In this document: positions 1-64,000 of the stretch, one piece after another
How the letters are laid out: the number at the start of each line of letters is the position of its first letter
Numbering within the stretch: the first letter of the stretch is position 1
Source: Stegostoma tigrinum
Lineage: Eukaryota
Direction of reading: 5' to 3'
NCBI RefSeq assembly: GCF_030684315.1
Contig: NC_081391.1
Coordinates: forward strand, 21,350,629-21,414,628
DNA: 64,000 bases
Position numbers and translations under genes: made by a program
The notes under the pieces: generated by a model
Told to the model about the DNA's origin: nothing
The model's database searches: none
Seen by the model: only the letters and a program-made list of their open reading frames with translations

Positions 1-564
1 GATGAGTAGATTAGGATTATTTTCATGAGAAGGAGGGCGATTGAGGGGATGGTGGGTGGCCTGATTTGAGGTCGACAAAATCGTGAGGGGCATAGACAAG
101 GTGGACAGCAAGAAGCTTTTTCGCCAGAGTGAGACTCACTTTCTAGGGTTCACGAGTTCAATGTAAGAGGAGGAAAGTTTAGCGGGGAATCAGGTTAGAT
201 TCCCACAGTGTGGAAAGAGGCCTTTTAGCCCAAAAGTACCACACCGCCCCTTTGAAGCATCCCAAACAGACCCATCCCCTATAACCCCCACACCTCTGAA
301 CCCTACGGGCAATTTATCATGTGGATATGTGTGGAGAAGTTCTTTACCCAGAGATTGGTGGGTGCCTGGCACATGCTGCCCGTGGAGGTGGTAGACGCAG
401 TCACGCTCGTGTCTTTTAAGATGTGTGGGGACAGGTACATGGATGAGCAGGGAGCAAAGAGATACAAACCCTTAGAAAAGAGATGACAGATTTAGACCGG
501 ATCTCAATCGGTGCAGGCTTGGATGGTCAAAGAGCCCGTTCCTGTGCTGTAATTTTCTTTGTTC
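1..564 (+). mobile_element. Degraded CR1-type LINE 3' fragment lying in ferritin intron 1
   Basis: Decayed ORF2 C-terminal sequence (resembles RLGLFS..DL.EV.KI.RGIDKVD..KLF..FFTQR.VGAW) and a CR1-like tail (gcccgttcctgtgctgtaattttctttgttc). The tail abuts ttaaatgtggaatcaagatgg, which is intron-1 sequence in the intact copies. Confidence 0.7.
193..322 (-). mobile_element. 3' half of an HE1-like elasmobranch SINE nested in the CR1 fragment
   Basis: Reverse complement reads catgataaattgcccgtagggttcag...ggggatgggtctgtttgggatgct...ggcctctttccacactgtgggaatcta. This resembles the shark HE1 SINE 3' region as I recall it; no alignment was run. Confidence 0.55.
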
Positions 565-667
565 TTAAATGTGGAATCAAGATGGTGACCAGGTTAGTTT
601 CTGATTGAGGAGTGCCATTGATGAATTTCAGCTATGTTTCCTTTTCCTGCCTTTCTCCTCCCCACAG

Positions 668-1830
668 TTCTCTTACTTTGACCGGGATTATGTTACCCTG
701 CGTCACTTTGTTGAGTTCTTCAAGGCGCAGTCCCATGAGGAGCGAGAACATGCTGAGAAACTGATCACGTTCCAGAATAAACGTGGAGGCCAAGTCCACC
801 TGCAGGACATCAAGATTGGATTCTAACCTTTTTTAATCTGCTCACGACAATTGACTGGTATCTCAATATGTTCAGCTTCAAGACTGAACAAATACTATGA
901 ACGGGAGGCTGTTCACCACAATGAGGCTCCTTTAAAAGGAAATACTTTGCACTTGTGATTGAATAACAGTCAGCAATTGTGATCATCCAGAATACTGGAT
1001 GGTGAGCAAATGTCAGCGTCTAACGCTTCTTTGGACAAGATGAGCTATCAAAAGGTAAGACAGAAAATTGTCAGGTGTGGGAAGCATTTGATGCAGCCCT
1101 TCCACATCTAGAAGATGTTTCTGATGCCTGGGGATCATTCTGATCACTGAATAGTAGGATATGTTTGGAAAATTTCCTCTTCAAGAAAAGAATAGTACAA
1201 CATCTGGCAGGTGTTTAACCAAAGTAAAGTTGGTCTGAGGTACCTCCCCTACAATGATGAGGGATAACTAACTGATCAGATGTAGACGAATGATAGAACT
1301 GCCTGCTGAGCTGTGCTTTCTGTTCCTGCTTCCATCCCTCCAGAAGCCAGAGCAGGATGAGTGGAGCAATGGTCTGGAGGCAATGCAGAGAGCTCTGCAG
1401 ATGGAGAAGGATGTGAACCAGAGTCTGCTGGATCTGCACAAACTCGCATCTGGCCACACTGACCCTCATGTGAGTTTGTAAACTTTCTTCTTGGAAGAAA
1501 GTGGTGTGTTTGTGCACTCTCTGGGTAAACATCCAATTACCTTCTCCCAGCCTCCTGCAGGCTGTTAAAACAAACATACAAATGCATCACCTCAGTGGAC
1601 CTCCACATGGTGGTGATGGTCACATCTGTCATGGGGGTCACTTTCAGACACTTTTGATCCTCTGGATTAATTTTCTCTTCCAGCTGTGTGACTTCCTGGA
1701 GAGGCAATACTTGGATGAGCAAGTGAAGATGATCAAGAAGCTGGGAGATCACATCACCAACCTGAAGAGACTGGGAGCCCCTGACAATGGCATGGGAGAG
1801 TACCTGTTTGACAGGCTCACACTCAGCTGA
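668..1830 (+). pseudogene. FTH1: Ferritin heavy-chain-like copy 1 (exons 2-4 only; intron-2 donor mutated)
   Basis: Exons 668-814, 1344-1469 and 1684-1830. The donor after exon 2 reads AT (caag|attgga) instead of GT. Substitutions include DYVT, VEFFKA and QVH. Exon 1, if present, lies upstream of the window. Confidence 0.8.
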
Positions 1831-1898
1831 ATGGGGTCAATAATGTGAATGTTGTACATGGTGACATAATGCTAGTAACTTGGTTGTGCTCTGAGCAA

Positions 1899-1904
1899 AT
1901 TAAA
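1899..1904 (+). terminator. Putative polyadenylation signal ATTAAA
   Basis: About 70 nt after the stop codon and at an equivalent position in every copy with exon 4. Copy 5 has AATAAA at this site. Confidence 0.6.
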
Positions 1905-3908: not shown

Positions 3909-4886
3909 TGACCAAACAGGTAGATGAGAGAAAACCGGTTGATGTGGTGTATATGGATTTCGGCAAGGCTTTCGATTAGGCTCTTGTACAAAATACGGAG
4001 GAATGGGATTGTGGGAGATATAGCAGTTTGGATCAGAAATTAGCTTGCTGAAAGAAGACAGGGTGGTGGTTGATGGGAAATGTTCATCCTGGAGACCAGT
4101 TACTCGCGGTGTACCGCAAGGGTCCGTGTTGGGTCCACTGCTGTTTGTCATTTTTATAAACGTAGAAGGATGGGTTAGTAAATTTGCAGACGACACGAAG
4201 GTCGGTGGAGATGTGGATAGTGACGAAGAATGTTGTAGGTTACAGAGAGACGTGGATAAGTTGCAGAGCTGGGCTGAGAGGTGGCAAACGGAGGTTAATG
4301 CGGACAAGTGTGAGGTGATGTACTTTGGTAGGAGGATCCGGAAGGCAAAGTACTGTAAGATTCTTGGTAGTGTAGATGAGCAGAGAGATCTCGGTGACCA
4401 TGTACACAGATCCTTGAAAGTTGCCACCCAGGTTGACAGGGTTGTTAAGAAGGCCTAGAGTGTTTTAGCTTTTATGAATCCAGGGATCATGTTCCGGAAC
4501 CAAGAGGTTATGCTGCAGCTGTACAAAACTCTGGTGCGGCCACACTTGGAGCATTGCGTACAGTTCTGGTCACCGCGTTATAAGAAGGATGTGGAAGTTT
4601 TGGAAAGGGTGCAGAGGAGGTTTACTAGGATGTTGCCTGGTATGGAGGGAAAGTCTTACGAGGAAAGGCTGAGGGACTTGAGGCTGTTCTCGTTAGAGAG
4701 AAGAAGGTTGAGAGGTGACTTAATTGAGGCATATAAGATAATCAAAGGGTTAGACAGGTTGGATAGGGAGAGCCTTTTCCCTAGGACGGAAACGGCGAGC
4801 ACGATGGGGCATAGCTTTAAATTGAGGGGTGAAAGATATAGGACAGATGTCAGAGGTAGTTACTTTACTCAGAGAATAGTAAGGGT
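3909..4886 (+). mobile_element. 5'-truncated CR1 LINE (type a), 3' end removed by a deletion
   Basis: RT motifs GVPQGSVLGPLLF and KFADD, plus LVRPHLE.CVQFWSP. Left target-site duplication (TSD) copy AACATA at 3903-3908. Joins ferritin intron 1 at 4885. Confidence 0.9.
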
Positions 4887-5663
4887 GAGACTTGTGGTCT
4901 TGAATGGTCTATTTCAGTGTTAGGGCTGTGATATGATTGTACTAATGATTTACATCCTTGTGGAAGCCTGCATCAGTCCAAATATAACTTTTTATATCTT
5001 GTCCTATTAATGAAGCCTTTTTTTTAATAAACATCCTAACTGTGATTAACTACTGGAAATAAAAGACTGAAATGAGCTGCTGGAAAAGCTTAGTGGGTCT
5101 GGTAGGATCTGTGGTGAGAAATCAGTTCCTGTTTTTGGTCCGGTGACCTTTCCTTCATGGTTTTTAGTTGCTACTTATGAGGAGCAGACTTTTTCCACTC
5201 CCAAGATGGATTATCTGGAACAAAAATCAGTCACTGTCTCTTGTGCAGATGAGGTGTTAGGACAGTGGGGCTAAATCAGATGAGTGATGTTGGTAATGTG
5301 AGGAGCTCAGATTTCAGGTTCTCTTGGTCAACATGCACATGTCCCTTCGTTCTGTTGGACAATGCCCTGATTGGCTTCCAGCACTGGGTAATAGTGTTTC
5401 TGACCTGCAGTGCAGGGATGTCTAATGCCTGTTGCCAGCTGTGACCGTCACCGTGCACTGTCTCACCAAGTCACCTACCAGGGGTTGTAGCGGGTGCTAC
5501 TTAATCTTTATTTCTAGATGTTTGAACAAATGTCTGTCTAGTTTAGTTTATGGATGACCATAAATGTAAATACCTGTCTTCTTACTGTCCATCTAACTTC
5601 CATTTCGTGAGCAAAACCAAGCTGAATTGAGTGAAATTTACTTCCCATTTTGTCTGTTTGCAG

Positions 5664-6923
5664 TTCTCTCTCTTTGACCAGGATGATGTTGCCCTCCATC
5701 ACTTTGCTGAGTTCTTCAAGGAGCAGTCCCATGAGGAGCGGGAACACGCTGAGAAACTGATGGCATTCCAGAATAAACGTGGAGGCTGAGTCCTCCTGCA
5801 GGACATCAAGGTTGGATTCTGAGAATGTCTGTCTGTTTGCAGCTTTTTGAGCAGCTACAATCGAATGGTATCTCCATCTATTTAGCTTCAGGATTGATCA
5901 AATACTATGTCAAGGGCAAGTTGTTCCCCGAAACAGGATTTGTTTAGGGAAAAGGGAAATACTTTGCATTTGTGACTCAATAGCAGAAGGCAATTCAGAT
6001 GATCCAGGCTACTGGATGGTGAGCACATGTCCCTGTATGTGACTCTATATGGACAAGGTGAGGTAACAAAAGGTAAGGCTGAGAACTTGCAGCTACAAAA
6101 AGCAGCAGCATCCAACCTCACTACATCTAGAAGAGGTTTGTAATGCCTTGGGACCATTCTGGTCACTACATCAAACAGTAAAGCAAGGGATTACTTCCAT
6201 TGCGACTGATTCTAGATACGACTTCTTTCAGAATTCACAGTAACAGTGAGATATGTTAACATTTCTTTATTCTCAGGCCAGCATAAAATCTAGAGGGTTT
6301 TTGTATCCAAGTAAAATTTTTTGTCTGAATGTAACCCCTGGAAATGATGAGGGATAACTAACTGATCAGATGTAGACTAATGATACAACTGCCTGCTGAG
6401 CTGTGCTTTCTGTTCCTGCTTCCCTCCCTTCAGAAGCCAGAGCAGGATGAGTGCGGCAATGGTCTGGAGGTGATGCAGAGAGCTCTGCAGATGGAGAAGG
6501 ATGTGAACCAGAGTCTGCTGGATCTGCACAAACTTGCCTCTGACCACATAGACCCTCATGTGAGGTTTTATCCCTTTCCTGGTAGAAAGTGATCTGTTTG
6601 TGTACTTCCAGGGTGGGGAATCCAATTATTTTTCTACCTGCCTCCTGCAGGATGTTTAAACAAAACCTTGTGAAGGCATCACTTGCATGCCCCTCCCCCA
6701 TAGGGAGGTGATGGTCACTTCTGTCATGGGAGGTCACTGACATTTTTTGATCCTTGTTGGATTAATTTTGTCTTCCAGCTGTGATTTCATGGAGAGGCAC
6801 TACTTGGATAAGTAAGTGAAGATGATCAAGAAGCTGGGAGATCACACCACCAACCTGAAGAGACTGGGAGCCCCTGACAATGGCATGGGAGACTACATGT
6901 TTGACAGGCTGCCACTCCATTGA
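5664..6923 (+). pseudogene. FTH1: Ferritin heavy-chain-like copy 2 pseudogene (exon 1 deleted)
   Basis: Exons 5664-5810 (CGA>TGA at 5787), 6434-6559 and 6779-6923 (2-bp deletion at the exon start, plus CAA>TAA). Promoter and exon 1 are absent relative to paralog copy 10. Confidence 0.9.
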
Positions 6924-9879: not shown

Positions 9880-9885
9880 TGAACC

Positions 9886-11734: not shown

Positions 11735-11930
11735 TTCCAATCACAGAATAACCATCCAGACCTGGCTCTCATCTCCACCTCTGATCAGCTCTGCTTAACA
11801 CACCCTCCCCCCTCTTTCTCATTGGTGCCTGTATGCTGCGGTGGTTCCTGATTGGCTAGCAGCAACTGTCAGTCATCATCAGTTCCGCCTCTCTCTGTTG
11901 TGACTGCAGGATGGTCCCAGGACTATAAAT
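11735..11930 (+). promoter_or_regulatory. Ferritin copy 3 proximal promoter (CCAAT motifs, TATAAAT at 11924-11930)
   Basis: One CCAAT, two ATTGG and a TATAAATA 77 nt upstream of the ATG. The same layout occurs in copies 7, 9 and 11. Confidence 0.65.
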
Positions 11931-12000
11931 ACAAGAGCCTGTGGGAGAGAGAGACTTAGTTCTAGAGTTTTCTTGGTGCTTGTGAGCAGGAATAGTGAAG

Positions 12001-14875
<2,875 letters not shown>

Positions 14876-18126: not shown

Positions 18127-18148
18127 AACATAAAAGATGAATGCATTT

Positions 18149-18675: not shown

Positions 18676-18779
18676 TTAAGTGTGCAATCAAGATGGTGAC
18701 CAGGTTAGTTTCTGATTGAGGAGTGCCATTGATTAACATCAGATATGTTTCCCTTTCCTGCCTTTCTCTTCCCCCACAG

Positions 18780-19991
18780 TTCTCTTACTTTGACCGGGAT
18801 GATGTTGCCCTGCGTCACTTTGCTGAGTTCTTCAAGGAGCAGTCCCATGAGGAGCAGGAACACGCTGAGAACCTGATGGCTTTCCAGAATAAACGTGGGG
18901 GCCGAATCCTCCTGCAGGACATCAAGGTTGGATTCCAAAGCCTTCTGTTTGCAGCTTTTCGTGAAATACCACTCAATTGTGGCTAGCTCAATCTGTTTAG
19001 CTTCAGGACTGAACAAATGCTGTATGAATGGGAGGGTTGCTCACCACAATAGGATTCCCTTCACTAAAAGGAAACACTTTTGCACTTGTGATTGAACAAC
19101 AGTTGGCAATTGTGATAATCCAGTATTCTGGATGGTGAGTAAATATCAGTGTCTAACGCTGCTTTGGACAAGATGAGGTGTCAAAAGGGAAAACAGAAAT
19201 CTTTCAGGTGTGGAAAGCATCAGTATGAAGCCTTTATACATCTAAAGATGTTTCTGATGCCTTGAGATCACTCTGATCACAGCATAGCAGGATCTGTTTA
19301 GAAATGTCCCCTTCAAGAACAGTACCAAATACAGCAGGTGTTTCACCAAGGTCAAGTCGGCCTGTAGCACCTCCCCGACAATGATGAGGGATAACTAACT
19401 GATCAGATGTAGACTAATGATACAACTGCCTGCTGAGCTGTGCTTTCTGTTCCTGCTTCCCTCCCTCCAGAAGCCAGAGCAGGATGAGTGGGGCAATGGT
19501 CTGGAGGCAATGCAGAGAGCTCTGCAGATGGAGAAGGATGTGAACCAGAGTCTGCTGGATCTGCACAAACTGGCCTCTGGCCACATGGACCCTCATGTGA
19601 GTGTGGTGTATTTAAATCAGGGATTTTGAATAAAAACAGGGATCAGACACTTGGTCCTTTTTGTTAGCCACAAGATCTCACTTGACATTGTGGAGGGTTT
19701 TCTTGGGTTATACCAAGATCCTCCTGTTTCTAAAACTGAGCACTTTCTCACGTGTATTTGGCAATCTCCATGACATCACTTCACTGCTCGGTCTCCCAAG
19801 CTGTATTTTGTCGGATTTAACCAGTTCCCCTCTTTGTCTTCCAGCTGTGTGACTTCCTGGAGAGGCACTACCTGGATGAGCAAGTGAAGATGATCAAGAA
19901 GCTGGGAGATCACATCACCAACCTGAAGAGACTGGGAGCCCCTGACAATGGCATGGGAGAGTACCTGTTTGACAGGCTCTCACTCAGTTGA
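18780..19991 (+). pseudogene. FTH1: Ferritin copy 4: headless exon 2-4 cassette with open frame and intact splice sites
   Basis: Exons 18780-18926, 19471-19596 and 19845-19991. No exon 1 or TATA between copy 3 and this copy. Confidence 0.85.
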
Positions 19992-23725: not shown

Positions 23726-24912
23726 TTCTCTTACTTTGACCGGGATGATGTTGCCCTGCGTCACTTTGCTGAGTTCTTCAAGGAGCAGTCCCATGAGGAG
23801 CAGGAACACGCTGAGAACCTGATGACTTTCCAGAATAAATGTGGGGGCCGAATCCTCCTGCAGGACATCAAGGTTGCATTCCAAAGCCTTCTGTTTGCAG
23901 CTTTTTGTGAAATACCACTCAATTGTGGCTAGCTCAATCTGTTTAGCTTCAGGACTGAACTAATGCTGTATGAATGGGGGGTTGCTCACCACAATAAGAT
24001 TCCCTTCACTAAAAGGAAACACTTTTGCACTTGTGATTGAACAACAGTTGGCAATTGTGATCATCCAGCATTCTGGATGGTGAGCAAATATCAGTGTCTA
24101 ACGCTGCTTTGGACAAGATGAGGTGTCAAAAGGGAAAACAGAAATCTTTCAGGTGCCGAAAGCATCAGTATGAAGCCTTTATACATCGAGAAGATGTTTC
24201 TGATGCCTTGATATCATTCTGATCACAGCATAGCAGGATCTGTTTAGAAATGTCCCCTTCAAGAACAGTACCAAATACAGCATGTGTTTTACCAAGGTCA
24301 AGTTGGCCTGTAGCACCTCCCCTACAATGATGAGGGATAACTAACTGATCAGATGTAGACTAATGATACAACTGCCTGCTGAGCTGTGCTTTCTGTTCCT
24401 GCTTCCCTTCCTCCAGAAGCCAGAGCAGGATGAGTGGGGCAATGGTCTGGAGGCAATGCAGAGAGCTCTGCAGATGGAGAAGGATGTGAACCAGAGTCTG
24501 CTGGATCTGCACAAACTCTCCTCTAGCCACACTGACCCTCATGTGAGTTTGTAAACTTTTCTCTCTCTTTCTTGGAAGAAAGTGGTGTGTTTGTGCACTC
24601 TCTGGGTTAAAAATCCAATTACCTTCTCCCAGCCTCCTGCCGGCTGTTAAAACCTTTCAAAGGCATCACCTACGTGGACCTCCACGTGGTGGTGATGGTC
24701 ACATCTGTCATGGGAGGTCACTTTCAGACTGCTTTTTGATCCTCTGGACTAATTTTGTCTTCCAGCTGTGTGACTTCCTGGAGAGGCACTACCTGGATGA
24801 GCAAGTGAAGATGATCAAGAAACTGGGAGATCACATCACCAACCTGAAGAGACTGGGAGCCCCTGACAATGGCACGGGAGAGTACCTGTTTGATAGGCTC
24901 ACACTCAGCTGA
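23726..24912 (+). pseudogene. FTH1: Ferritin copy 5: headless cassette, exon-2 acceptor AG>GG
   Basis: Exons 23726-23872 (preceded by cacgg), 24417-24542 and 24766-24912. No exon 1. Confidence 0.87.
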
Positions 24913-27291
24913 GTGGGGTCAATAATATCTGTTGTACATGGTGACCTCATTCTCGTGAATGGCTTTGGTTGTGCTCTGAGCAAATAAAAGTAGTGTTCAC
25001 CATGGAACTGAGTACTGTGTCACTTCATAGCTGCTTCTGGTTGCTGTTTTAACAAGTGATCACAAAATGGATTTTGTTCTTTGACAACCTTTTGATTCAC
25101 TGCCTGCCCCAGTTATTGGCTCGGTGTTTGCTTCTGCTGAGCGTCTGTCTGTAGGGATTGAGTGGGCAATCTTGACCTTGGAAATGCCACAACTGGCAAA
25201 CATCTGCATTGCAGACAATGCCACAACAAAATCTGTCCTCCGCTTCCCCAGGACAATTTTTCAGGACCAGCTTCTGGTCAAAACCATGACTGAAATCTGT
25301 CCTGTGCCTAAACAATTGGCATTGCCAAGGCCTGTCCATTCACTCAATCTTCAGCATTTTTGGAAAAACCAAGCTGACACTGGAAACCAGGAACAAAAGC
25401 TGCTGGGAAATCTCAGGTTTGGTAGTGAGAAGTGTTGAACAGAACCGGGACATGAGACACGTGTTTATCTCTTGACTGATTTTGTTGCCAGGCCATGAGG
25501 TGTTTTCCACCTACTTGTTCTCTTGCTTAAATTCTACTGACTTTAATAGGTCACAAAATTCCTCATTAGAAGAATATAAAGTTGACCAATCATGCAAGGT
25601 ACACCTGCTTTTTTGCAACTGTTTACCATTTACATGTTTCCTGAGCTAGAGAAGTGGTTTCTCTCGTATGTCCTTTCCATTCAGTAGAATGAAAGCTCTG
25701 CTTTCTCCCTGACAATGCTAATGACTATGGCCTCTATTAGGCAATGAAGCAGTGCCCACCTTCTAAAGCATCTGCTGTAACTCCTGTCCTTGCTCTGCAA
25801 TGCAAAGGTGACAAATGCTGAGGACACCTGGTGAAAATCAAGCTAAAAACAAAATACCACTTGCAGAAGTCAGTAGTTCCAATTTCCTTTACATTTAATT
25901 GTGAAGAAAATCAGCTTTCTGATGTAATCTGGCCTCCATGTGGCTCCACACACGCTGCATTGGGTCTAGCTCATTGCTGTCAATCACAATCAGTCACTGG
26001 TTTCTAATGGGTGACCACTGACAATTCCTTGACAGGATAAGGATGTCACTGACCAGGCAGCATTTATCCTCTCTCTGAACTGCCCATGGGACAATTAGTC
26101 ACCCACAGTGCTTTAGGCTTGGTGTCATATACTGGCCAGACCAGGTAAGGATGGCAGTTTGGCAGTTCCCTTCCCTGAATGACTTCAGTGAAAAGGATAT
26201 TTTATTCAGACTAGGAATTGCATGCTCATTTTTAGGTTCTTAATGCCCGAAGAGAGTTGTTCAGACAGAATCAGGACAACGGGCATCAGTCCAACACTCC
26301 AGAAGCTTAAGAGTTGCCAGCTCAGAGCAGCCACGAGATTCACTCCTTCCACCACTGACACACAGGGACTGCAATGTGTACTATCACCAAATGTTGTAGA
26401 AATCCACCAAAGCTCCTTAGACAACACCTTCCAAAGCCCCCATTACTTGCCATGGGACAAGGGCAGCAAATACATGGAACACAACCGCCTCTAAGTTCTA
26501 CACCAAACCATTCACCATCCTGAGTTGGAAACATGGTCCCATTCCCCTAGGTTGCTGGATCAGAATCCTGGAATTCCCTCCCTAACAGCATTGGGGATCT
26601 GCCTACACCAAATGGGCAACAGCAATTCAAGAACGTAAGCCACCACATTCTCTCATCTAATGTTAGGCCTGATCTCCGAGGGTTTCAACTACCTCTGGCT
26701 GATGGTTCTTTTGTGAAATTGTCAAGTTCCAGCTCAACCACAGCTGGAGTGCTCAGTTCTAGCAGCTTCGACCCAAAGATGGTTATGCACAGAATTTCTG
26801 CAATGAACTTGGACAGAGAGCTGGTTCATTGATGATAACGGTTTGTCCCAGTCCCTCTGTGTAGAAGGTTAAGGGATGGCCGTGTTTGAAATTTCAAAGA
26901 GGATTAATGGATTTGACAGAGTGAACAGACAGAATCTATTTCTTGTCTATGGTCATTGAGGACTGTGTGCAAAATAGGATTATAGTTTTCACATTTCAAC
27001 AAAATCATCCAGGATAATGTCAAAAACAGCTTCTTTGTGGAGAAGATAATATGTGCACGTGCTGTTAGATATTTATTGGGTAAGGCTTGACTTTGACAAT
27101 CACTTTCTAATTTCAACACTAAAAATATGTGAATAACACATTTTGTTTGAGAAACATAGAAAGACAAAACAGGCTCAATGTTACAAATCTGATGTGAGTA
27201 CAGGAGCAGAGAGACTTTGGGTTTCAAGTATGTGATTATCTGAAAGTGACCAGCCAAGATGAAGCTGTTATTGAGAAGGCTGAGGTGAACC

Positions 27292-29670: not shown

Positions 29671-32063
<2,393 letters not shown>

Positions 32064-36416: not shown

Positions 36417-36486
36417 ACAAGAGCCTGTGGAAGAGAGAGACTTAGTTCTAGAGTTTTCTTGGTGCTTGTGAGCAGGAATAGTGAAG

Positions 36487-38877
<2,391 letters not shown>

Positions 38878-40958
38878 GTGAGGTCAATAATGTGTCTGTT
38901 GTACATGGTGACATAATGCTAGTAACTTGGTTGTGCTCTGAGCAAATTAAAATAGTGTTCACCATGGAACTGAGTACTTTGTATAATTTCACAGCTGCTT
39001 CTGGCTCTTGGTATTGCTGTTTGACACCTGATCATTAATTCCTTTTCTGTTCTGATTAACCTTTGATTCAATGCCTGCCCCAGTCGTCTGCTCCTTTTCT
39101 CTTGTTTGTAGGAATTAGGTGGGCAATCCTTGCAGTGGAAATTCCACAAGTGTTCAATTTGGGTTTTTGGCTAGTAAGCAGTGTTGTGTTGACTTTTTTA
39201 TTCCAAACCAGCTTCTAGTCAATATCTTCAGTGAAACCAGCCCCCTGTCTCAATGTTAGACACTGCCCTTGGCAATGTTCAAGTCTCTTTTGTAAATAAG
39301 CAGGGGCAGGAAATAGCAGGTTTGGGGAGCATCTGTGGAGAGAACTGTTCTCAGTCCCAGGACCCAAGATACAGTCACATCTCGTGACAGATGTTGCCAG
39401 ACCTGTGAGGCTTTCCAGCAATTTTTTTGTCGCACTTCAAATCTAGCAATTTGAGCATACTTTCACTCTTTTGAACAGGAATATATAGTGGAACATCCAG
39501 CATCTAAGATGCACTGATCTTTAGCACTTTAGATAAGCAATTGTTTCCAGAGCTGGGAAATAGTTTACTCTCTTTTGCTGCAGTGGGGGAAGGAGTAAGG
39601 GCACTGCCTGATTGTAGGAGAATGGCAAAATTTGTTTTCTCGTGTATCAGTCTTTCTGCTTCTAGACAATGATCCTCATTATGTAATGCAGCAGTGCCCA
39701 CCTTGGAGCCCCTGTGGTAGAACTTCTATCATTGCTCTGCAATGTAGAGATGCCAAAGGCTCAGGACACCTAGTAAAAATAAAGCTAGAATGCAAATGCC
39801 ACTAGCAGAAAGCAGCAGTTTGTGTGCTTAGCAAGGAAATAAGCTCTCCTGATGTACGCTGACCGGCATGTACCTCCACCTGCAATGTGCTATGGCTGCC
39901 TAATTACTGGTGCTCAGGGGTGACAGTTTCCTTTATTTAAAGGATGAGGATGTCTCTGAGCTGACACCATTTATTTATCCATTGCTCATTGTCCCCAAGG
40001 CCAGGTCAGAGTCACACACGTGGCTGTGGTTGCAGCGTCATACGCAGGCCAGGTAAGGATGGGTTTTTGACACTGAATATAATGCTCCTCATCAGCTTCT
40101 TAATTCTAGAACTCCAGAGAGTTGTCGCACAGAATTAGGAGATCATTCCACCACTCCAGAAACTTGATGGCCTCCAGCAGCCACTAGATGCATTCTTTGC
40201 ACCACTGACACACACGGAGTACACTGTGTACCGCCTCCCAAAAGCTGGAGAAATCCACCAAAGCTCCTGAGAATACTTTCCAAAGCCCTAATTACTTGCC
40301 ATGGGAGAAAGGCATCTGATACAGGGGAAAACCACCCCCTCTAAGTTCTCCATCAAGCTACCTGCCATCCTGAGTTGGAAACACAACACCCCATTCTCCA
40401 GTGTCGGTGGATCAGAATCCTGGAATTCCCTCACTAGGAACATTGTGGATCTGACTACAGCAATTAAAGAAGGAAAGCCACCCCATTCTCTCATGGTGGG
40501 TGTGATCTCCGAGCGGGTCAAATACCTCTGGCTGGGCCGCCTTTGGTGAAATTGTCAAGTTCTAGCTCAACTCCATCTCGAGTGCATGGTTCTAGTAGGT
40601 TCAATCCAAAGATGCTTATGCACAGAATTTCTGGAATGAACCTGGGCAGAAAGTTAATTGGCTACGATGATAATCGTTTTCCCAAGTCCCTCGATGTAGA
40701 AGTGGACGGGATGTCTGTGCTTGAAATTTACAAGTGGATTCATGGATTTGACAGGGTAGATAGAGAGATCCTGCTTCTTTTCAATTCACATCCAGGACTG
40801 AGAGGGGGGAATATGATTACATTCCTAGCAGTAGAAGTAAATCATCCATGATAAAGCAAAAAACAGCTGCTTTTTGGAAAGGATAATATGTGAATGAGCA
40901 GTTAGATATTTATTCGGTAAGATGTTGATGTTGCCAATCACTTTCCCATTGGAACATA

Positions 40959-42786: not shown

Positions 42787-43994
<1,208 letters not shown>

Positions 43995-48324: not shown

Positions 48325-48331
48325 TATAAAT
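48325..48331 (+). promoter_or_regulatory. TATA box of ferritin copy 9
   Basis: TATAAAT 77 nt upstream of the ATG at 48402, preceded by the conserved CCAAT block. Confidence 0.65.
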
Positions 48332-48401
48332 ACAAGAGCCTGTGGGAGAGAGAGACTTAGTTCTAGAGTTTTCTTGGTGCTTGTGAGCAGGAATAGTGAA
48401 G

Positions 48402-50676
48402 ATGGTTTCCCAAGTGTGTCAGAACTACCACAAGGACTGTGAGGATGCTGTTAACAAGCAGATCAACCTGGAGCTCTATTCCTCCTATGTTTACCTCTCC
48501 ATGGTGAGCTTTGTGGAATTGAAGCCTGTGCTATGATAGTGTTGACCTGTTTGGTTTTTACGCTGGGTTAATGAATTAGCTGTAACATGTATTATTTTCT
48601 GTGGCCCTTCCCCTGTTGCAATCTAGTGCAGGTCTTAACACTGACTCTCTGTTCAAAACTTGACCACTGTCTTCATGTCCAACTGGCTCCTGGATGTGGA
48701 TGCCCAGCTTGCTGTCTCTGGACAATGTAACCCTTGGTGATTTTTTCATTTAACTCTGGAGGGATGATCTGGTCTTGGTCAATAATTAATTTTTGTAAAA
48801 CTTTGGTTGTATTCCTTTTCTCAACAAAAGCTTTTCCTGACACAAATATACTCCTTTTTTAAAACCTTGCCCTATTCACCGGACTGTCTTGTGCTCAAGA
48901 TGTCAAGTTCCCTGAACTAAAAGAACAGCTGCTGCTAGACATTAAACACTAACAAAAATAGCTAGAAAAGCTCTACAGAGCTGGAAGAAATCCAAGCTCT
49001 GGGTCCATTGACCCTTTCTCAGAAGTGGCTTTGAGCTATGCAATGTGAGGAAAGGGGCACATTTTCAGACTATGTATGTGTTTTTTTTTCTTTCTCTCTA
49101 ACAAAGCAGTTAAAATTCTGTGGAGTGGGTGGTAGGACACTGCGGTTATTCAGGTGGGTGATAGTGATAATGAGACTGCTGACTGAGCTTTCTGGTTGTG
49201 TTAATGAACACATGTCCCTTCATTCAGTTGGACAGGGGCCGAACTGGTCTCCACCTCCTGAACAATAGTGTTTCTAACCTGCAGAGCAGGGATGTCTAAT
49301 GGCTCTAGACAGCTCTCCCCTTCATCATCCATGGAAGGTGACTTCCTGCTTTGTCTGTTTTTTTAACCACTTAAATGTGGAATCCAGATGGTGCCCAGGT
49401 TAGTTCCTGAGTGAGGAGTGTCATTCATGAATTTCAGACAGTTTCCTTTTAGCCTCTCTCTTCCCACAGTTCTCTTACTTTGACCGGGATGATGTTGCCC
49501 TGCATCGCTTTGCTGAGTTCTTCAAGGAGCAGTCCCATGAGGAACGGGAACACGCTGAGAAACTGATGGCATTCCAGAATAAACGTGGAGGTCGAGTCAT
49601 CCTGCAGGACATCAAGGTTAGATTCTGAAGCCTTCTGTTTGCAGCTTTTTGTGAGCAGCTACAATCGACTGGTATCTCCATCTATTTAGCTTTAGCCTTG
49701 AACAAATACTGTGTGAAGGGGAGGGTGTTCACCAAAATAGGATTCCTTTAGGTTGAAAGGAAATACTCTGCACTTATGAGGGCAATTGAGAGGAACCAGA
49801 ATAGTGAGTAGATATCAATGTGAATGACTCTCCTTCAGACAGAATGAGGTAACAAAAGCTAAGACAGGAAATTGTTGCACTGTGGAAAGTAGCAGTGTCC
49901 AGCCTTTCTGAATCTGGAAGATGTTTCTAACACCACAATAGTGAAGCCAGGAACTACTTCCATTGGTACCTATTCTCTACATGTGAATTCTGAGAATCTA
50001 CATTAACAGTAGAATGTGTCTAGAAAATTTGTTATTCCCTCAGTACAAAATCTAGTTGTTGTCTTCAAATTAAAGTTGGTTTGCAGTACCTCCCCTACAA
50101 TGATGAGGGATAACTAACTGATCAGATGTAGACTAATGATACAACTGCCTGCTGAACTGTGCTTTCTGTTCCTGCTTCCCTCCCTCCAGAAGCCAGAGCA
50201 GGATGAGTGGGGCAGTGGTCTGGAGGCAATGCAGAGAGCTCTGCAGATGGAGAAGGATGTGAACCAGAGTCTGCTGGATCTGCACAAACTCGCCTCTGGC
50301 CACACTGACCCTCATGTGAGTTTGTAAACTTTCTTCTTGGAAGAAAGTGGTGTGTTTGTGCACTCTCTGGGTAAAAATCCAATTACCTTCTCCCAGCCTC
50401 CTGCAGGCTGTTAAAACAAACTTACAAATGCATCACCTCAGTGGACCTCCACCTGGTTGTGATGGTCACATCTGTCATGGGGGTCACTTTCAGACACTTT
50501 TGATCCTCTGGATTAATTTTCTCTTCCAGCTGTGTGACTTCCTGGAGAGGCAATACTTGGATGAGCAAGTGAAGATGATCAAGAAGCTGGGAGATCACAT
50601 CACCAACCTGAAGAGACTGGGAGCCCCTGACAATGGCATGGGAGAGTACCTGTTTGACAGGCTCACACTCGGCTGA
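48402..50676 (+). CDS. FTH1: Ferritin heavy-chain-like copy 9 (intact, 173 aa)
   Basis: Exons 48402-48503, 49470-49616, 50190-50315 and 50530-50676. GT-AG introns, no stops; ends LTLG. Confidence 0.93.
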
Positions 50677-52748
50677 ATGGGGTCAATAATGTGTATGTTG
50701 TACATGGTGACATAATGCTAGTAACTTGGTTGTGCTCTGAGCAAATTAAAATAGTGTTCACCATGCAACTGAGTACTTTGCATAATTTCACAGCTGCTTC
50801 TGGCTCTTGGTATTGCTGTTTGACACCTGATCATGAAGTGTTTTTCTGTTCTGATTAACCTTTGATTCAATGCCTGCCCCACTGGCTTGCTCCTTTTCTC
50901 TTGTTTGTAGGAATTAGGTGGGCAATCCTTGTAGTGGAAATTCCACAAGTGTTCAGTTTGGGTTTTTTTGGCTAGTAAGCAGTGTTGTATTGACTTCTTT
51001 ATTCCAAACCAGCTTCTGGTCAATATCTTCAGTGAAACCAGCCCCCTGTCTCAATGTTAGACACTGCCCTTGCAAATGTTTAGGTCTCTTTTGTAAATAA
51101 GCAGGGGCAGGAAATAGCAAGTTTGGGGAGCATCTGTGGAGAGAAAACTGTTCAGTCCCAGGACCCAAGCTTTCCAGCAATTTTGTTGTCGCACTTCAAA
51201 TCTAATGATTTGAGCATACATTCACTCTTTTTGGAACAGGAATATATATAGCAGAACATCCAGCATTTCAGATGCACTGATCTTTAGCATTTAGATAAGC
51301 AATTGTGTCCAGATGTGGGAAATTGGTTTCTCTCTCTTGCTGCGGTGGTGGAAGGAGTGAGGGCAGTGGCTGTTTGTAGGAGAATGGCAAAGTTTGTTTT
51401 CTTGTGTATCAGTCTCTCTGCTTCTAGACAATGATCCTGATTAGGTAATGAAGCAGTCCCCACCTTCGAGCCCCTGTGGTAGAACTTCTATCACTTCTCT
51501 GCAGTCTAAGGACGCCAAATGCTCATGACACCAGGAGAAAATAAAGCTCGAACCCAAATGCCACTGGCAGAAAGCAGCAGTTCCTATTCTTAGCAAGGAA
51601 ATAAGCTCTCCTGATGTAGATTGACTGACTGGAATGTACCTACACCTGCAGAGCACTCTGGCTGCCTAATTACTGATGCTCAGGGGTGACAGATTCCTTT
51701 ATAAAAAGGATGAGGATGTCTCTGAGCTGACACCATTTATCCATTTCCGATTGCCCCCGCCAAAGCCAGGTCAGAGTGTCACGCTTTGCTGTGGTTGCAG
51801 TGTCATATGCAGGCCAGACTAAGTAAGGATGCATTTTTGACACTGAATTTAATGCTACTCATCAGTTTCTTAATTCTAGAACTCCAGAGAGTTGTTGCAC
51901 AGAATTAGATCAGTCCACCACTCCAGAAATGTGATGGCCTCCCGCTCCCACCAGCCACGAGATTCATTCTTTGCACCACTGACACACACAGAGTACACTG
52001 TGTACTGCCTCCCAAAAGCTGCAGAAATCCACCATCGCTCCTGAGACAATACTTTCCATAGCCCTAATTACGTGCCATGGGAGAAAAGCATCTCATACAG
52101 GGGAACACCACCCCCTCTAACTACTCCACCAAGCGACATGCCATCCTGAGTTGGAAACGTGACCCGCCATGCTCCAGGGTCGGTGGATCAGAATCCTGGA
52201 ATTCCCTCACTCAGAACATTATGGATCTGACGACAGCAAATAGGCAACAGCAATTCAAGAAGGAAAGCCACCACATTCTCTCATGGTGAGCCTGATCTCA
52301 GACCGGGTCCAATACCTCGGGATGGGCCTTCTTTTGTGAAATTGTCAAGTCCTAGTTCAACCCCATCTGGAGTGCACTGTTCCAGTAGGTTCAATCCAAA
52401 GATGCTTATGCACAGAATTTCTGGAATGAACCTGGGCAGAAAGTTAATTGGCTACGATGATAATAGTTTTCCCAAGTCTCTCGGTGTAGAAGTGGAAGGG
52501 ATGTCTGTGCTTGAAATTTACAAGTGGATTCATGGATTTGATAGGGTAGATAGAGAGATCCTGCTTCTTTTCAATTCCATTCCAGGACCGAGAGTGGGGA
52601 ATATGATTACATTCCTAGTAGTAGAAGTAAATCATCCATGATAAAGCAAAAAACAGCTGCTTTTTGGAAAGGATAATATGTGAATGAGCAGTTAGATATT
52701 TATTCGGTAAGATATTGATGTTGCCAATCACTTTCCCATTGCAACATA

Positions 52749-55043: not shown

Positions 55044-55050
55044 TATAAAT
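55044..55050 (+). promoter_or_regulatory. TATA box of pseudogene copy 10
   Basis: TATAAAT 74 nt upstream of the ATG at 55118. The upstream CCAAT block is missing. Confidence 0.5.
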
Positions 55051-55117
55051 ACAGAGCTTGTCGGGGAGCAACTCAGTTCTAGGGTGGTCTTGGTTTTAAT
55101 GAACAAGGCTAGTGAAG

Positions 55118-57527
55118 ATGGTTTCCCAAGTGTGTCAGACCTACCACAAGGACTGTGAGGATGCTGTGAACAAACAGATCAACCTGGAGCTTTATTCCTC
55201 CTATGTTTACCTCTCCATGGTGAGACTTGTGATCTTGAATGGTCTATTTCAGTGTTAGGGCTGTGATATGATTGTACTGAGCCTTTAAGTGGCTTCTTGC
55301 TCAATGATTTAGTACTACCATATATCTTGTCTGTTGTCCTTCCTGGAATGAATCCTGTGAGTGCTCTTAATACTAATTCTGTAGCAATTTTAAGCTTGTC
55401 TTGTGTTGGAGCTGGCTCTTGTCTAGGAGTCCCCAGTATGTTGTAATTCTGGGCAGAGCACATTTTTGGTGCTGAGGGATGGCCTGGTTCTGCTTCTTAA
55501 TTCAACTCCTCCTTCCATGTTGATATCAATGGCCCATTTATATTTGAAATCATTTACATCCTTGTGGAAGCCTGCATCAGTCCAAATCTAACTTTTTATA
55601 TCTTGTCCTTTTAATGAAGCCTTTTTTTTAATAAACATCCTAACTGTGATTAACTACTGGAAATAAAAGACTAAAATGAGCTGCTGGAAAAGCTTAGTGG
55701 GTCTGGTAGGATCTGTGGTGAGAAATCAGTTCCTGTTTTTGGTCCGGTGACCTTTCCTTCATGGTTTTTAGTTGCTACTTATGAGGAGCAGACTTTTTCC
55801 ACTCCCAAGATGGATTATCTGGAACAAAAATCAGTCACTGTCTCTTGTGCAGATGAGGTGTTAGGACAGTGGGGCTAAATCAGATGAGTGATGTTGGTAA
55901 TGTGAGGAGCTCAGATTTCAGCTTCTCTTGGTCAACATGCACATGTCCCTTCGTTCAGTTGGACAATGCCCTGATTGGCTTCCAGCACTGGGTAATAGTG
56001 TTTCTGACCTGCAGTGCAGGGATGTCTAATGCCTGTTGCCAGCTGTGACCGTCACCGTGCACTGTCTCACCAAGTCACCGACCAGCGGTTGTAGCGGGTG
56101 CTACTTAATCTTTATTTCTAGATGTTTGAACAAATGTCTGTCTAGTTTAGTTTATGGATGACCATAAATGTAAATACCTGTCTTCTTACTGTCCATCTAA
56201 CTTCCATTTCGTGAGCAAAACCAAGCTGAATTGAGTGAAATTTACTTCCCATTTTGTCTGTTTGCAGTTCTCTCTCTTTGACCAGGATGATGTTGCCCTC
56301 CATCACTTTGCTGAGTTCTTCAAGGAGCAGTCCCATGAGGAGCGGGAACATGCTGAGAAACTGATGGCATTCCAGAATAAACGTGGAGGCTGAGTCCTCC
56401 TGCAGGACATCAAGGTTGGATTCTGAGAATGTCTGTCTGTTTGCAGCTTTTTGAGCAGCGACAATCGAATGGTATCTCCATCTATTTAGCTTCAGGATTG
56501 ATCAAATACTATGTCAAGGGCAAGTTGTTCCCCGAAACAGGATTTGTTTAGGGAAAAGGGAAATACTTTGCATTTGTGACTCAATAGCAGAAGGCAATTC
56601 AGATGATCCAGGCTACTGGATGGTGAGCACATGTCCCTGTATGTGACTCTATATGGACAAGGTGAGGTAACAAAAGGTAAGGCTGAGAACTTGCAGCTAC
56701 AAAAAGCAGCAGCATCCAACCTCACTACATCTAGAAGAGGTTTGTAATGCCTTGGGACCATTCTGGTCACTACATCAAACAGTAAAGCAAGGGATTACTT
56801 CCATTGCGACTGATTCTAGATACGACTTCTTTCAGAATTCACAGTAACAGTGAGATATGTTAACATTTCTTTATTCTCAGGCCAGCATAAAATCTAGAGG
56901 GTTTTTGTATCCAAGTAAAATTTTTTGTCTGAATGTAACCCCTGGAAATGATGAGGGATAACTAACTGATCAGATGTAGACTAATGATACAACTGCCTGC
57001 TGAGCTGTGCTTTCTGTTCCTGCTTCCCTCCCTTCAGAAGCCAGAGCAGGATGAGTGCGGCAATGGTCTGGAGGTGATGCAGAGAGCTCTGCAGATGGAG
57101 AAGGATGTGAACCAGAGTCTGCTGGATCTGCACAAACTTGCCTCTGACCACATAGACCCTCATGTGAGGTTTTATCCCTTTCCTGGTAGAAAGTGATCTG
57201 TTTGTGTACTTCCAGGGTGGGGAATCCAATTATTTTTCTACCTGCCTCCTGCAGGATGTTTAAACAAAACCTTGTGAAGGCATCACTTGCATGCCCCTCC
57301 CCCATAGGGAGGTGATGGTCACTTCTGTCATGGGAGGTCACTGACATTTTTTGATCCTTGTTGGATTAATTTTGTCTTCCAGCTGTGATTTCATGGAGAG
57401 GCACTACTTGGATAAGCAAGTGAAGATGATCAAGAAGCTGGGAGATCACATCACCAACCTGAAGAGACTGGGAGCCCCTGACAATGGCATGGGAGACTAC
57501 ATGTTTGACAGGCTGCCACTCCATTGA
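55118..57527 (+). pseudogene. FTH1: Ferritin copy 10 pseudogene (four exons)
   Basis: Exons 55118-55219, 56268-56414 (TGA at 56391), 57038-57163 and 57383-57527 (2-bp deletion). Confidence 0.9.
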
Positions 57528-60483: not shown

Positions 60484-62523
60484 TGAACCTTGTGTTTTCA
60501 AATTGAGGCATCGAGTATAAAAGCAAGGAATTGATGATACCCCTCTACAACTCATTGGTTAGACCACATTTGCAGTGATGTGCTCAGTTCTGGGCGTGGC
60601 TTTTAAGGAAGGGCATGCAAGCCCTGGACAGAGTTCAAAGGTGATTTATAATAATGACACCTGGAATGGGGAATTTCAGACACACGGAAAGATTAAAGAA
60701 ATAGCGCTTATTCTCCTTGGAGCAAGGAGCACTTGTTGAAGTGATCAAAATTATCACCAATTCTGTCAGGGTAAAGGGGGATATTCTGTTTTCACCAGTG
60801 GATACGTTAGTGACGAGGGGTCACAATTTGTCAGTGAGGGAGCTCACAGTGAGAGGAGGAGAAACCTCTTCACTCAGAAAGTTGGTAGGGTTTGGTATGC
60901 GTAGCTGACAGGAGTGATGGACGCAGATTCCGTAGGTGGCTTTAGAAAAGCAGCTGTATACATATATGGAAGTGGCAAATTTAGAGGGATACAGACATAG
61001 GGCTGGAGAGTGGGGCTGCGTGTGGAATGCTTTCAGAAACTGAATCAGGCACGATGGGCCAAATGGCCTCCTATCATTAAAAATCCTCTGCATGTTCCCC
61101 CAGGAAATTCTCAGAGTTTGGAGAGGGGCTTTGTACTCCTCTCAGTGGGCACCTGTACAAGGCACATTTAATGTGGGAAAGCTGTTACACATCAGCAGAG
61201 ACATGGTCCTTTACACAAGGTAGACCCAGTTCCACTGGCAAAGAAATGTTGACTGGGGATCCCCCCACTGCTGACCTTCACCCACCGTCACAGCCAACGA
61301 TAGCACACGCCTATCTTCCACCTGGATGGCCGTTGGGAACTTGTTTTGCATTGCACTTTACCAGGACCCTCCCCTCGATCGTACCGTCCTGGGTGGCCCT
61401 GCCAGGAGGTGAAATCCTCTTCAGGTATCACTCTCAGAACAAACAGAACACTCGAGGCTCTCCATCACTGCGAGGTGACAATCCACAGGCAGGAGCTGGA
61501 GGCAGGGAGATGCTGCTCAGGTACAGACCCATCACAGAATCGGAGAATTGTTGTGGCACAGCAGGCGGCCATTCGGTCCTTTGTGCCTGCACCTGTTCTG
61601 GTTGTTTTCTAATTCTGCCTGTAAAGATGTTACAAAATCTCTGGATCTGGTATGGACTTGGACCAAGGCTTCCTGGTCCACAGCTAGGGACATTACCCCT
61701 GCATCACAATACCCTGGCTGCACTGGTTGTACAAACTTAGAATCATCGAAAAAAAATTGTTGGATTCGGCCATTCAGCCCCCTCCAGACTGCTCTGCCAT
61801 TCCATGTGATTGTGGCTGATTCCATAACTCAGTCCCATCTTCCCACTCTCTCTCCATACTCTTTGATCCCTGCAGCCCTCAAAGCTACACCCAACTGCTC
61901 CTGGAAAACATTCAAAGTTTTGGCCTCAAATGTTTTCTGTGGCACAGAATTCCACAGGCCCCCCACTCTCTCGGTGAAGAGATTTCTCCTCATCTCAGGC
62001 CTAAATGTGTACTTAGGCTGTGACCCCTGGTCCTGAACTTTTCCATCATCAGGAACATCCTTCCTGTCTTTTCCACAGCTGACACTGTTACAATTTTCGA
62101 TGACCCCGAGCCAATTTCCCATCTTTCTTTCCCAAATCCCAGCACAACAGGCTGAGAAACTGACACTCCCCTTCCTCAATGAGTCCCTTGTGCAGTTGAT
62201 CACAACCACCATAATTTAAAAACAAAACGAGCAATCTTTTCTCAAACCATATTTACTTCTTTCAGAAAAGAACCAAATGACCTATGACCTGATTGAGTGG
62301 TGCAGAAGGTTTGAGATGCCGAATGGCCTCCTGCTGTTCCAATCACAGAATAACCATCCAGACCTGGCTCTCATCTCCACCTCTGATCAGCTCTGCTTAA
62401 CACACCCTCCCCCTCTCTCTCATTGGTGCCTCTATGCATGGGTGGCTCCTGATTGGCTAGCAGCAACTGTCAGTCATCATCAGTTCTGCCTCTCTCTGTG
62501 TGACTGCAGGATGGTCCCAGGAC

Positions 62524-62530
62524 TATAAAT
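62524..62530 (+). promoter_or_regulatory. TATA box of ferritin copy 11
   Basis: TATAAAT 77 nt upstream of the ATG at 62601. Confidence 0.65.
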
Positions 62531-62600
62531 ACAAGAGCCTGTGGGAGAGAGAGACTTAGTTCTAGAGTTTTCTTGGTGCTTGTGAGCAGGAATAGTGAAG

Positions 62601-63967
62601 ATGGTTTCCCAAGTGTGTCAGAACTACCACAAGGACTGTGAGGATGCTGTTAACAAGCAGATCAACCTGGAGCTCTATTCCTCCTATGTTTACCTCTCCA
62701 TGGTGAGCTTTGTGGAATTGAAGCCTGTGTGATAACAGTGTTGACCTGTTTGGGGTTTTTATGCTGGGTTAATGAATTAGCTGTATCATGTATTATTTGC
62801 TGTGGCCCTTCCCCTGTTGCAATCTAGTGCAGGCCTTAACACTGACTCTCTGTTCAAAACCTGACCATTGTCTTCATGTCCAACTGCCTCCTGGATGTGG
62901 ATGCCCAGCTTGCTGTCTCTGGACAATGTAACCCTTGGTGATTTTTCATCTAACTCTGGAGGGATGATGTGGTCTTTGTCAATAACTAAATTTTAAAATT
63001 GGTTGCATTCCTTTTCTCAACAAAAGCTTTCCCTGGTGGAAACTTTTCCTGACACAAATATACTCCTTTTTGTTTAAAACCTTGCCCCATTCACCAGACT
63101 GTCTTGTGCTCAAGATGTAAAGTTCCCTGAACTAAAAGAACAGCAGCTGCTGGACACTAAACACCAACGGAAAAGCTCTAAACATCTGGTTGAAAACCAA
63201 GCTCTGGGTCCACTGACCCTTTCTCAAGTGGCTTTGAGCTATGCAATGTGAGGAAAGAGGCACACTTTCACACGATGTAGGTGCTTTTTTTTTCTCTCTC
63301 TAACAAAGCAGTTAGAATTCTGTGGAGTGGATGGTAGGACACTGGGGTTATTCAGGTGGGTGATGGTGATAATGAGGCTGCTGACTGAGCTTTCTGGCTG
63401 TGTTCATGAACACATGTCCCTTCATTCAGTTGGACAGGGGCCTAACTGGTCTCCACCTCCTGAACCATAGTGTTTCTAACCTGCAGAGCAGGGATGTCTA
63501 ATGGCTATAGACAGCTGTCCCCTTCAGCAGGCACCATGCCACATGTACTGTCTCTCTTTCTCGCTCACACAGGCCAGGGATTGCATTTGCTTTTTGTCCT
63601 TGATTTCCAGAAAGCTGGTGAAATATCTGCACAAAGGCTGCTTTAGTATCTGTTGTTTGGGTTATAATCCATGGAAGGTGACTTCCTGCTTTGCCTGTTT
63701 TTTTACCACTTAAATGTGGAATCAAGATGGTGCCCAGGTTATTTCCTGAGTGAGGAGTGTCATTCACGAATTTCAGACAGTTTCCTTTTAACCTCTCTCC
63801 CTCCCTCCCTCCCTCCACAGTTCTCTTACTTTGACCGGGATGATGTTGCCCTGCATCACTTTGCTGAGTTCTTCAAGGAGCAGTCCCATGAGGAACGGGA
63901 ACACGCTGAGAAACTGATGGCATTCCAGAATAAACGTGGAGGTCGAGTCCTCCTGCAGGACATTAAG
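62601..63967 (+). CDS. FTH1: Ferritin heavy-chain-like copy 11 (exons 1-2; continues beyond the window)
   Basis: Exons 62601-62702 and 63821-63967, both intact with GT-AG sites. Confidence 0.88.
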
Positions 63968-64000
63968 GTTGGATTCTGAAGCCTTCTGTTTGTGTAGCTC

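What the first reader, a model, noticed from the sequence alone, without database searches (positions are those of the whole stretch)
1..64000. Dense tandem array of at least 11 ferritin H-like genes undergoing birth and death
Seen: 11 same-strand copies at roughly 5-8 kb spacing, with the array open at both window edges; 3-5 copies are potentially functional and the rest are broken in different ways. Established: the best-studied vertebrates carry only a few intron-containing ferritin genes, and mammalian extras are mostly retrocopies. Inference: this is a lineage-specific, high-dosage or specialised ferritin family (for example oocyte/yolk, embryonic or immune iron withholding). I cannot tell whether it has already been described.
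Basis: partly seen in the sequence, partly recalled or inferred. Interest (0 to 1): 0.7.

Follow-up and report, generated by a model that had tools for sequence, protein, structure and literature searches.

The report
Slice of giant shark ferritin array
These eleven iron-storage (ferritin) genes are a slice of a 1.6-million-base run of about 245 copies in a shark, half with intact coding frames and none checked carrying the usual iron-sensing RNA switch; such arrays are already reported in sharks and likely stock eggs with iron.

Summary
Real, and much larger than the window. The 11 copies belong to a 1.61 Mb array (G000:C50:19.95-21.56 Mb) of 245 units; 122 have intact frames and splice sites. 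In the window F, G, I and K are intact; C's frameshifts are probably assembly errors. Intact copies keep the ferroxidase residues, show purifying selection (omega 0.36 against 0.53 in broken copies), and lack an iron-responsive element (0 of 201 first exons; both single-copy controls have one). They form 21 families with unalignable introns but about 95% identical coding sequence, which points to gene conversion limited to coding exons. A second array with L-chain-like residues lies on the same chromosome. The expansion is not lineage-specific and not new: Sahm et al. (bioRxiv 2024) report ancient, ovary-expressed clusters in Greenland and white sharks, and Yang et al. (PNAS 2026) call it FTH1b. 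My tree rejects orthology to teleost fth1b. The scan has noted such arrays before, in this genome and others. The oocyte iron-loading role is inferred; expression of these particular copies was not shown.

The parts
668..1830 (+). Copy A, exons 2-4 (668-814, 1344-1469, 1684-1830); exon 1 lies 1.1 kb left of the window; intron-2 donor GT>AT; probable pseudogene
4885..6923 (+). Copy B: LINE joined directly to the intron-1 donor (promoter and exon 1 deleted); stops in exons 2 and 4, -2 frameshift in exon 4; pseudogene
11924..14875 (+). Copy C: TATAAA 11924, exons 12001-12101, 13689-13835, 14378-14503, 14729-14875; five single-base frameshifts that are probably consensus errors beside the N stretch
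18780..19991 (+). Copy D: exons 2-4 open, exon 1 and promoter missing
23726..24912 (+). Copy E: no exon 1, exon-2 acceptor AG>GG
29595..32063 (+). Copy F: intact 173-aa frame (exons 29671-29772, 30852-30998, 31541-31666, 31917-32063); TAGAAA in place of the TATA box
36410..38951 (+). Copy G: intact (TATAAA 36410; exons 36487-36588, 37701-37847, 38379-38504, 38731-38877; ATTAAA 38946); contigs of relatives' probable RNA runs join across all three introns
42787..43994 (+). Copy H: no exon 1, exon-2 acceptor AG>GG
48325..50750 (+). Copy I: intact 173-aa frame (TATAAA 48325; exons 48402-48503, 49470-49616, 50190-50315, 50530-50676; ATTAAA 50745)
55044..57527 (+). Copy J: four exons and TATA box, stop at codon 76, -2 frameshift in exon 4; pseudogene
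62524..63967 (+). Copy K: TATAAA 62524, exons 1-2 (62601-62702, 63821-63967); exons 3-4 lie past the right edge; intact
27289..28480 (+). Truncated LINE (reverse transcriptase) remnant carried in the spacer; related pieces at about 3911-4885, 8687-9881, 16953-18120, 21915-23068, 40961-42128, 52751-53904, 59291-60485
   Evidence: self-BLAST; Pfam RVT_1 for the pieces at 27289 and 59333
12943..13468 (.). 526 N inside intron 1 of copy C; the twin block has only 84 bases here

Best explanation
The window is a slice of an ancient shark array of about 245 ferritin units, half with intact frames, that keep the iron-oxidising residues and lack the iron-responsive element, and that likely serve as a high-dosage supply of ferritin for loading iron into eggs. 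Shown: copy number in the assembly, intact and broken status, ferroxidase residues, no IRE, a conserved TATA promoter about 75 bases before the ATG, purifying selection, and spliced transcripts of this subtype in relatives. Inferred: (1) without an IRE the mRNA would be translated whatever the iron level, so output would be set by transcription and copy number; (2) the tissue is the ovary or oocyte, taken from the Greenland shark cluster; (3) these subunits would co-assemble with those of the second, L-like array (K62, E141) at C50:13.0-14.4 Mb; (4) the array turns over by unequal crossing-over (blocks of several genes re-duplicated at 98.5-99.8% identity, inversions, deletions next to LINEs) while gene conversion keeps the coding exons alike across old lineages.
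For: 245 units, 122 intact, 109 distinct CDS; merging at 99.5% or more intron identity still leaves 105 of 122. E27, Y34, E61, E62, E107, Q141 in 122 of 122 and H65 in 121 of 122. pN/pS 0.32-0.42 intact against 1.13 for changes private to broken copies; codon-model omega 0.355 against 0.525. IRE: none in the window at E up to 5 while the control L002 scores 42.6 bits; 0 of 201 first exons have more than 3 of 5 upper-stem pairs, both controls 5 of 5. TATA box in 89 of 122 intact copies. Three of four probable RNA runs of relatives hold one contig joining all three introns. 4846 of 7381 pairs of intact copies have no alignable intron, yet differ at 4.7% of coding and 9.8% of fourfold sites; where introns align at 27% divergence, fourfold sites differ 7.6%. 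Identity between families falls to background within 20-30 bases of splice sites. D or A at position 158 in 117 of 122 own copies against E in 10 of 10 Chiloscyllium entries. Ovary-specific expression of the Greenland shark cluster (Sahm et al., section 6).
Against: No RNA run of this species or with a tissue label was laid; the runs laid are contigs, only guessed to be RNA, and hold 3-4% diverged relatives. Yang et al. report some copies transcribed in fin and blood, so the family is not strictly ovarian. Omega near 0.36 is high for a ferritin and broken copies still show 0.53, so constraint per copy is loose. The ferroxidase residues are also mostly kept in broken copies (53-59 of 59 per site), so their invariance is weak evidence alone. 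Position 158 also varies in Rhincodon (2 D, 2 E) and Heterodontus (3 D, 1 E). Some adjacent blocks are 99.6-99.8% identical and one borders a gap, so a few may be haplotype duplicates. Co-assembly with the L-like subunits was not tested.
Confidence: 0.62

Rival explanations
1. The copies mainly protect somatic tissue against iron-driven lipid peroxidation (ferroptosis) or withhold iron in immunity, as Yang et al. propose for the Greenland shark.
For: Yang et al. report transcription of part of the copies in fin and blood. IRE-free ferritin would sequester iron even when iron is low. Spliced contigs appear in several runs of unknown tissue.
Against: Sahm et al. found the largest cluster ovary-specific. 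This genome holds 122 intact copies in one array alone, more than the 59 given for the Greenland shark, which weakens a link to extreme lifespan.
Confidence: 0.17
2. Only a few copies matter; the rest are passengers of a recombination-prone tandem array, and the low dN/dS is copied onto them by conversion from the working genes.
For: Half the units are broken and broken units are re-duplicated many times (13 units with the codon-76 stop between 20.95 and 21.44 Mb); broken copies show omega 0.53; two intron families supply 78 of 122 intact copies.
Against: 21 intron families each keep an intact frame, splice sites and a similar core promoter; arrays persist across shark orders.
Confidence: 0.15
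3. Much of the array is false duplication in the assembly.
For: A 29.5 kb twin at 99.7-99.8% identity beside an N stretch; unplaced contig C216 holds more copies of the same family.
Against: 109 distinct CDS among 122 intact copies; 105 clusters remain after merging at 99.5%; 21 families have unalignable introns; the same unit type recurs more than ten times at 0.3-1.5% divergence, more than two haplotypes can give.
Confidence: 0.04

Closest known systems
Ferritin clusters of Greenland and great white shark (Sahm et al., bioRxiv 10.1101/2024.09.09.611499; section 6 read)
   Same: Hundreds of copies in large clusters, two types on one chromosome (they count 118 'FTH1' and 104 'FTL' in the largest), ancient, ovary-expressed.
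   Different: Another shark order. The section read gives no IRE analysis, selection test or intron comparison. They report over 85% full length and at least 90% identity to human proteins; here 122 of 245 units are intact and the consensus is 71% identical to horse H.
Shark 'FTH1b' tandem expansion (Yang et al. 2026 PNAS, PMC13214024; passages read)
   Same: Tandem copies on one chromosome, more in sharks than rays, some 5'-truncated.
   Different: They count 59 copies and link them to ferroptosis and longevity. My tree rejects grouping the array with two teleost fth1b proteins (p-AU 3e-5), so the name does not mark that orthology here.
Amphibian and fish M (H') ferritin, PDB 1mfr and variants
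   Same: Best solved-structure matches for a relative of the array (P0019); intact ferroxidase centre; 173-176 aa; on the BAX-bearing chromosome, as recalled for the L/M locus.
   Different: No tree support for a clade with bony-fish M; consensus 72-74% identical to Amia and sturgeon M; no IRE; Lys at the Arg23 position that NCOA4 binds (121 of 122; Arg23 from PMC11719527 figure legend).
IRE-less yolk ferritins of schistosomes and snails
   Same: Ferritin stocked in eggs; a cited title says schistosome ferritin mRNAs have no IRE (seen as a passage and reference list in PMC1488847; the original papers were not read).
   Different: Invertebrate, made outside the oocyte, not known to me as giant tandem arrays (recalled).

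Membership tests
Vertebrate cytosolic ferritin gene | Ferritin domain; four exons at conserved positions; about 175 aa | tested here: met
   Pfam Ferritin on exon 2 (exon 4 alone gave no hit); exons 102/147/126/147 nt, the same layout as the single genes on C50 and C20
Ferroxidase-active (H/M-type) subunit | E27, Y34, E61, E62, H65, E107, Q141 (residue list recalled) | tested here: met
   122 of 122 intact copies, H65 121 of 122
Ferroxidase-active (H/M-type) subunit | Measured Fe(II) oxidation | not testable with these tools
   needs recombinant protein
FTH1 orthologue | Groups with vertebrate FTH1 | tested here: inconclusive
   Outside the FTH1 clade in both trees, but forced grouping not rejected (p-AU 0.10)
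FTH1 orthologue | Is the genome's FTH1 locus | tested here: not met
   A single IRE-bearing gene at C20:18.05 Mb groups 100/93 with skate FTH1a; the array is on C50 with BAX and CHMP2A
IRP-regulated ferritin (FTH1, FTL) | IRE hairpin in the 5'UTR | tested here: not met
   0 of 201 first exons; both controls positive
Teleost fth1b | One clade with teleost fth1b | tested here: not met
   p-AU 3.3e-5 (two teleost fth1b rows, names as given by the database)
L-chain ferritin | K62 and lost ferroxidase centre (recalled) | tested here: not met
   E62 in 122 of 122; K62 and E141 belong to the other array
Elasmobranch ferritin mega-cluster (Sahm; Yang) | Large tandem cluster, two subtypes on one chromosome, shared across shark orders | tested here: met
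Elasmobranch ferritin mega-cluster (Sahm; Yang) | Ovary-specific expression | not testable with these tools
   runs carry no tissue label and none is on record as RNA

The most novel reading that the evidence does not exclude
Sharks run a second ferritin system freed from both iron controls: two mega-arrays on one chromosome make an active and an L-like subunit without IREs, the active one also lacking the NCOA4 arginine, to build long-lived iron cages in yolky eggs. At least 21 old gene lineages are held to one protein by gene conversion confined to coding exons.
Probability: 0.4. Interest if true: 0.65.

Novelty: new member of a known kind. Interest (0 to 1): 0.36.

Why it matters
The expansion itself is published. 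This locus adds three testable points that I did not find in the passages read or in eight literature searches (none of the listed papers treats them in sharks, judged mostly from listings; supplements not seen): loss of the IRE across the array, coding-exon homogenisation across lineages with unalignable introns, and non-orthology to teleost fth1b. A carpet shark with 122 intact copies also argues against reading copy number as a longevity trait. If the egg role holds, it would explain how large yolky eggs are stocked with iron.

Tried and rejected
Expression: no RNA holder listed for copy G; this is no evidence either way. Contig depth was far higher on exons than introns but the tool says it is no copy number, so it was not used. 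My first intron-identity measure was unusable (shuffled control 0.64) and was replaced by BLAST coverage. BAX-FTL-GYS1 microsynteny was not found: glycogen synthase hits are on C20 and C33, and BAX is 4.9 Mb from the array, so synteny is at chromosome level only. Placing the array against gene Z, FTH1 or bony-fish M failed: backbone unresolved (p-AU 0.10 for Z and for FTH1; 0.027 for the L-like array). A C/D-box-like element in intron 2 (Rfam sR1, up to 32 bits, cut-off 45) was rejected as a shown snoRNA: box C in 86 and all four boxes in 56 of 206 exon-3 flanks, absent from older families and outside the array, and conservation rises smoothly towards the exon. mRNA-templated conversion seems unlikely because 3'UTRs differ between families (by eye). 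The genome-wide IRE search scored only 82 candidates, so it was used for controls, not for absence. The Greenland shark preprint 10.1101/2025.02.19.638963 had no ferritin passage. No fold or complex job was sent, since ferritin subunits would pass by likeness to solved structures.
Full report
Observation. Self-BLAST and exon searches show eleven + strand ferritin copies spaced 4.9-8.0 kb. Six have exon 1 inside the window. F, G, I and K have intact frames and splice sites; A, B, D, E, H and J are broken. Copy C shows five single-base frameshifts. Against a twin block 99 kb upstream (99.7-99.8% identical), 19 of 20 indels in 29.5 kb lie within 11317-13816, around the N stretch, mostly in short runs of one base. 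Contigs of three independent runs carry the frame-keeping letters at three of the five sites listed. I read C as an intact gene with consensus errors; contigs drop rare variants, so this is probable, not shown.

Extent. The window is G000:C50:21,350,629-21,414,628. I fetched C50:19.90-21.73 Mb and annotated it with copy G's exons. The array spans 19.949-21.556 Mb: 245 units, 141 on + and 104 on -, of which 122 are intact, 71 have four exons with a lesion, 29 have exons 2-4 only and 23 are fragments. A 33 kb N stretch near the left end could hide more. The classification is automatic and could misjudge a few units. An exact exon-4 40-mer has 224 hits in the genome, 194 in this array; the rest include unplaced contig C216, which I did not fetch. 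Blocks of several genes recur at 98.5-99.8% identity, and some are inverted. Merging intact copies at 99.5% or more intron identity leaves 105 of 122, so false duplication can trim the count but not explain it. The closest named proteins are from zebra, whale and bamboo sharks, so the organism is a carpet shark.

Neighbours. Four single ferritin genes follow the array: X, Y, Z and W. Z carries an IRE, as does an FTH1-type gene on C20. CHMP2A lies about 33 kb left of the array and BAX 4.9 Mb to the right; both are on human 19q13 with FTL (recalled). A second array lies at about C50:13.0-14.4 Mb (142 of the 150 listed matches to P0090). I sampled 160 kb of it: its proteins have K62 and E141, as L chains do (recalled), and 0 of 10 first exons had an IRE stem.

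Protein and regulation. Intact copies give 104 distinct proteins of 173-176 aa. The ferroxidase residues are kept in 122 of 122 (H65 121), though broken copies mostly keep them too. Lys replaces the NCOA4-binding Arg23 in 121 of 122 (Arg23 from PMC11719527, passages read). A TATA box lies mostly 74-77 bases before the ATG (89 of 122 intact copies have one), leaving a 5'UTR of roughly 45-50 nt (inferred). No IRE was found in the window or before any of 201 first exons, while both controls pass. Contigs from probable RNA runs of relatives join exons 1-4 at my predicted sites in 3 of 4 runs; a fifth run held pieces of both subtypes. This shows the subtype is spliced in relatives, not that the window's copies are expressed.

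Evolution. pN/pS is 0.32 (pairwise) to 0.42 (distinct changes) for intact copies and 1.13 for changes private to broken copies. A codon model on exons 2-4 gives 0.355 for 102 distinct intact and 0.525 for 49 distinct broken sequences (59 of 123 broken units were usable). The intact copies fall into 21 intron families; two hold 53 and 25 copies, and the window belongs to the largest. In 4846 of 7381 pairs no intron aligns, yet coding sequence differs 4.7% and fourfold sites 9.8%. Between families, identity is 89-98% along the CDS, 40-80% over the core promoter and 5'UTR, and background beyond 20-30 bases into introns. Array proteins tend to group by shark lineage within one 100/99 clade, and D or A at position 158 fills 117 of 122 own copies where Chiloscyllium entries have E (10 of 10). 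Gene conversion confined to coding exons is the simplest reading. Selection on synonymous sites with fast intron turnover is not excluded.

Orthology. The array is outside the FTH1 clade in both trees, but the backbone is weak: grouping with FTH1 or with Z is not rejected (p-AU 0.10 each); grouping with teleost fth1b is (3e-5). The best solved-structure matches are frog M ferritin. It works like an H/M subunit by sequence, but I do not file it as FTH1, fth1b or L.

What is known. Sahm et al. (section 6 read) report 155 FTL and 179 FTH1 copies in the Greenland shark, clusters syntenic with the white shark, at least 250 My old, the largest ovary-specific. Yang et al. (passages read; found through an earlier scan note) report 59 FTH1b copies, raised numbers in sharks generally, and some transcription in fin and blood. 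Searches for zebra shark with ferritin gave 0 papers and for ferritin, gene conversion, concerted evolution and shark gave 1 unrelated paper. Supplements were not seen and may cover these points. Earlier scan notes already mention the missing IRE, the L-like array and homogenised exons; I tested these myself and had the IRE and L-like results before reading them.

Verdict. A real feature and a new member of a known kind. Most likely an IRE-free, dosage-amplified ferritin supply for eggs (confidence 0.62), evolving by birth and death of units plus exon-limited conversion. Interest 0.36.

Noticed in passing
   Followed up: partly
window 1250-1311 and the same place in 8 other copies: C/D-box-like motif order in intron 2, about 35 nt before exon 3; Rfam sR1 below cut-off; limited to the recently amplified family.
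   Followed up: partly
G000:C50:12.99-14.40 Mb (L183-L198): Second ferritin array with K62 and E141, L-chain-like; groups with a lizard L-type protein in the quick tree (SH-aLRT 94).
   Followed up: partly
G000:C50:20.46-20.93 Mb: Large inverted duplication centred near 20.695 Mb: units pair mirror-wise (for example 99/125, 100/124, 102/122, 110/114). This part holds most of the old intron families.
   Followed up: partly
G000:C50:21570700-21580354 and 21659128-21670200: Divergent single ferritin genes X (K61, Q65) and W (longest branch in the tree, ferroxidase site degenerate).
   Followed up: no
window 4884-4885: Copy B's LINE is joined exactly at the intron-1 donor with a short shared motif, suggesting a microhomology deletion of promoter and exon 1.
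   Followed up: partly
window stop codons, e.g. 38875-38877: 100 of 122 intact copies end at 173 aa; 22 keep 175-176 aa. The short end also occurs in other sharks' entries.
   Followed up: partly
proteins P0110, P0114: Turtle ferritin clusters with 26 and 21 members and altered ferroxidase residues (P0110) may mark a separate expansion; member counts could also be redundancy across assemblies.
   Followed up: no
G000 C2, C5, C11, C17, C43: Intronless, stop-containing ferritin matches, probably processed pseudogenes; the C17 one matches the array type.
   Followed up: no
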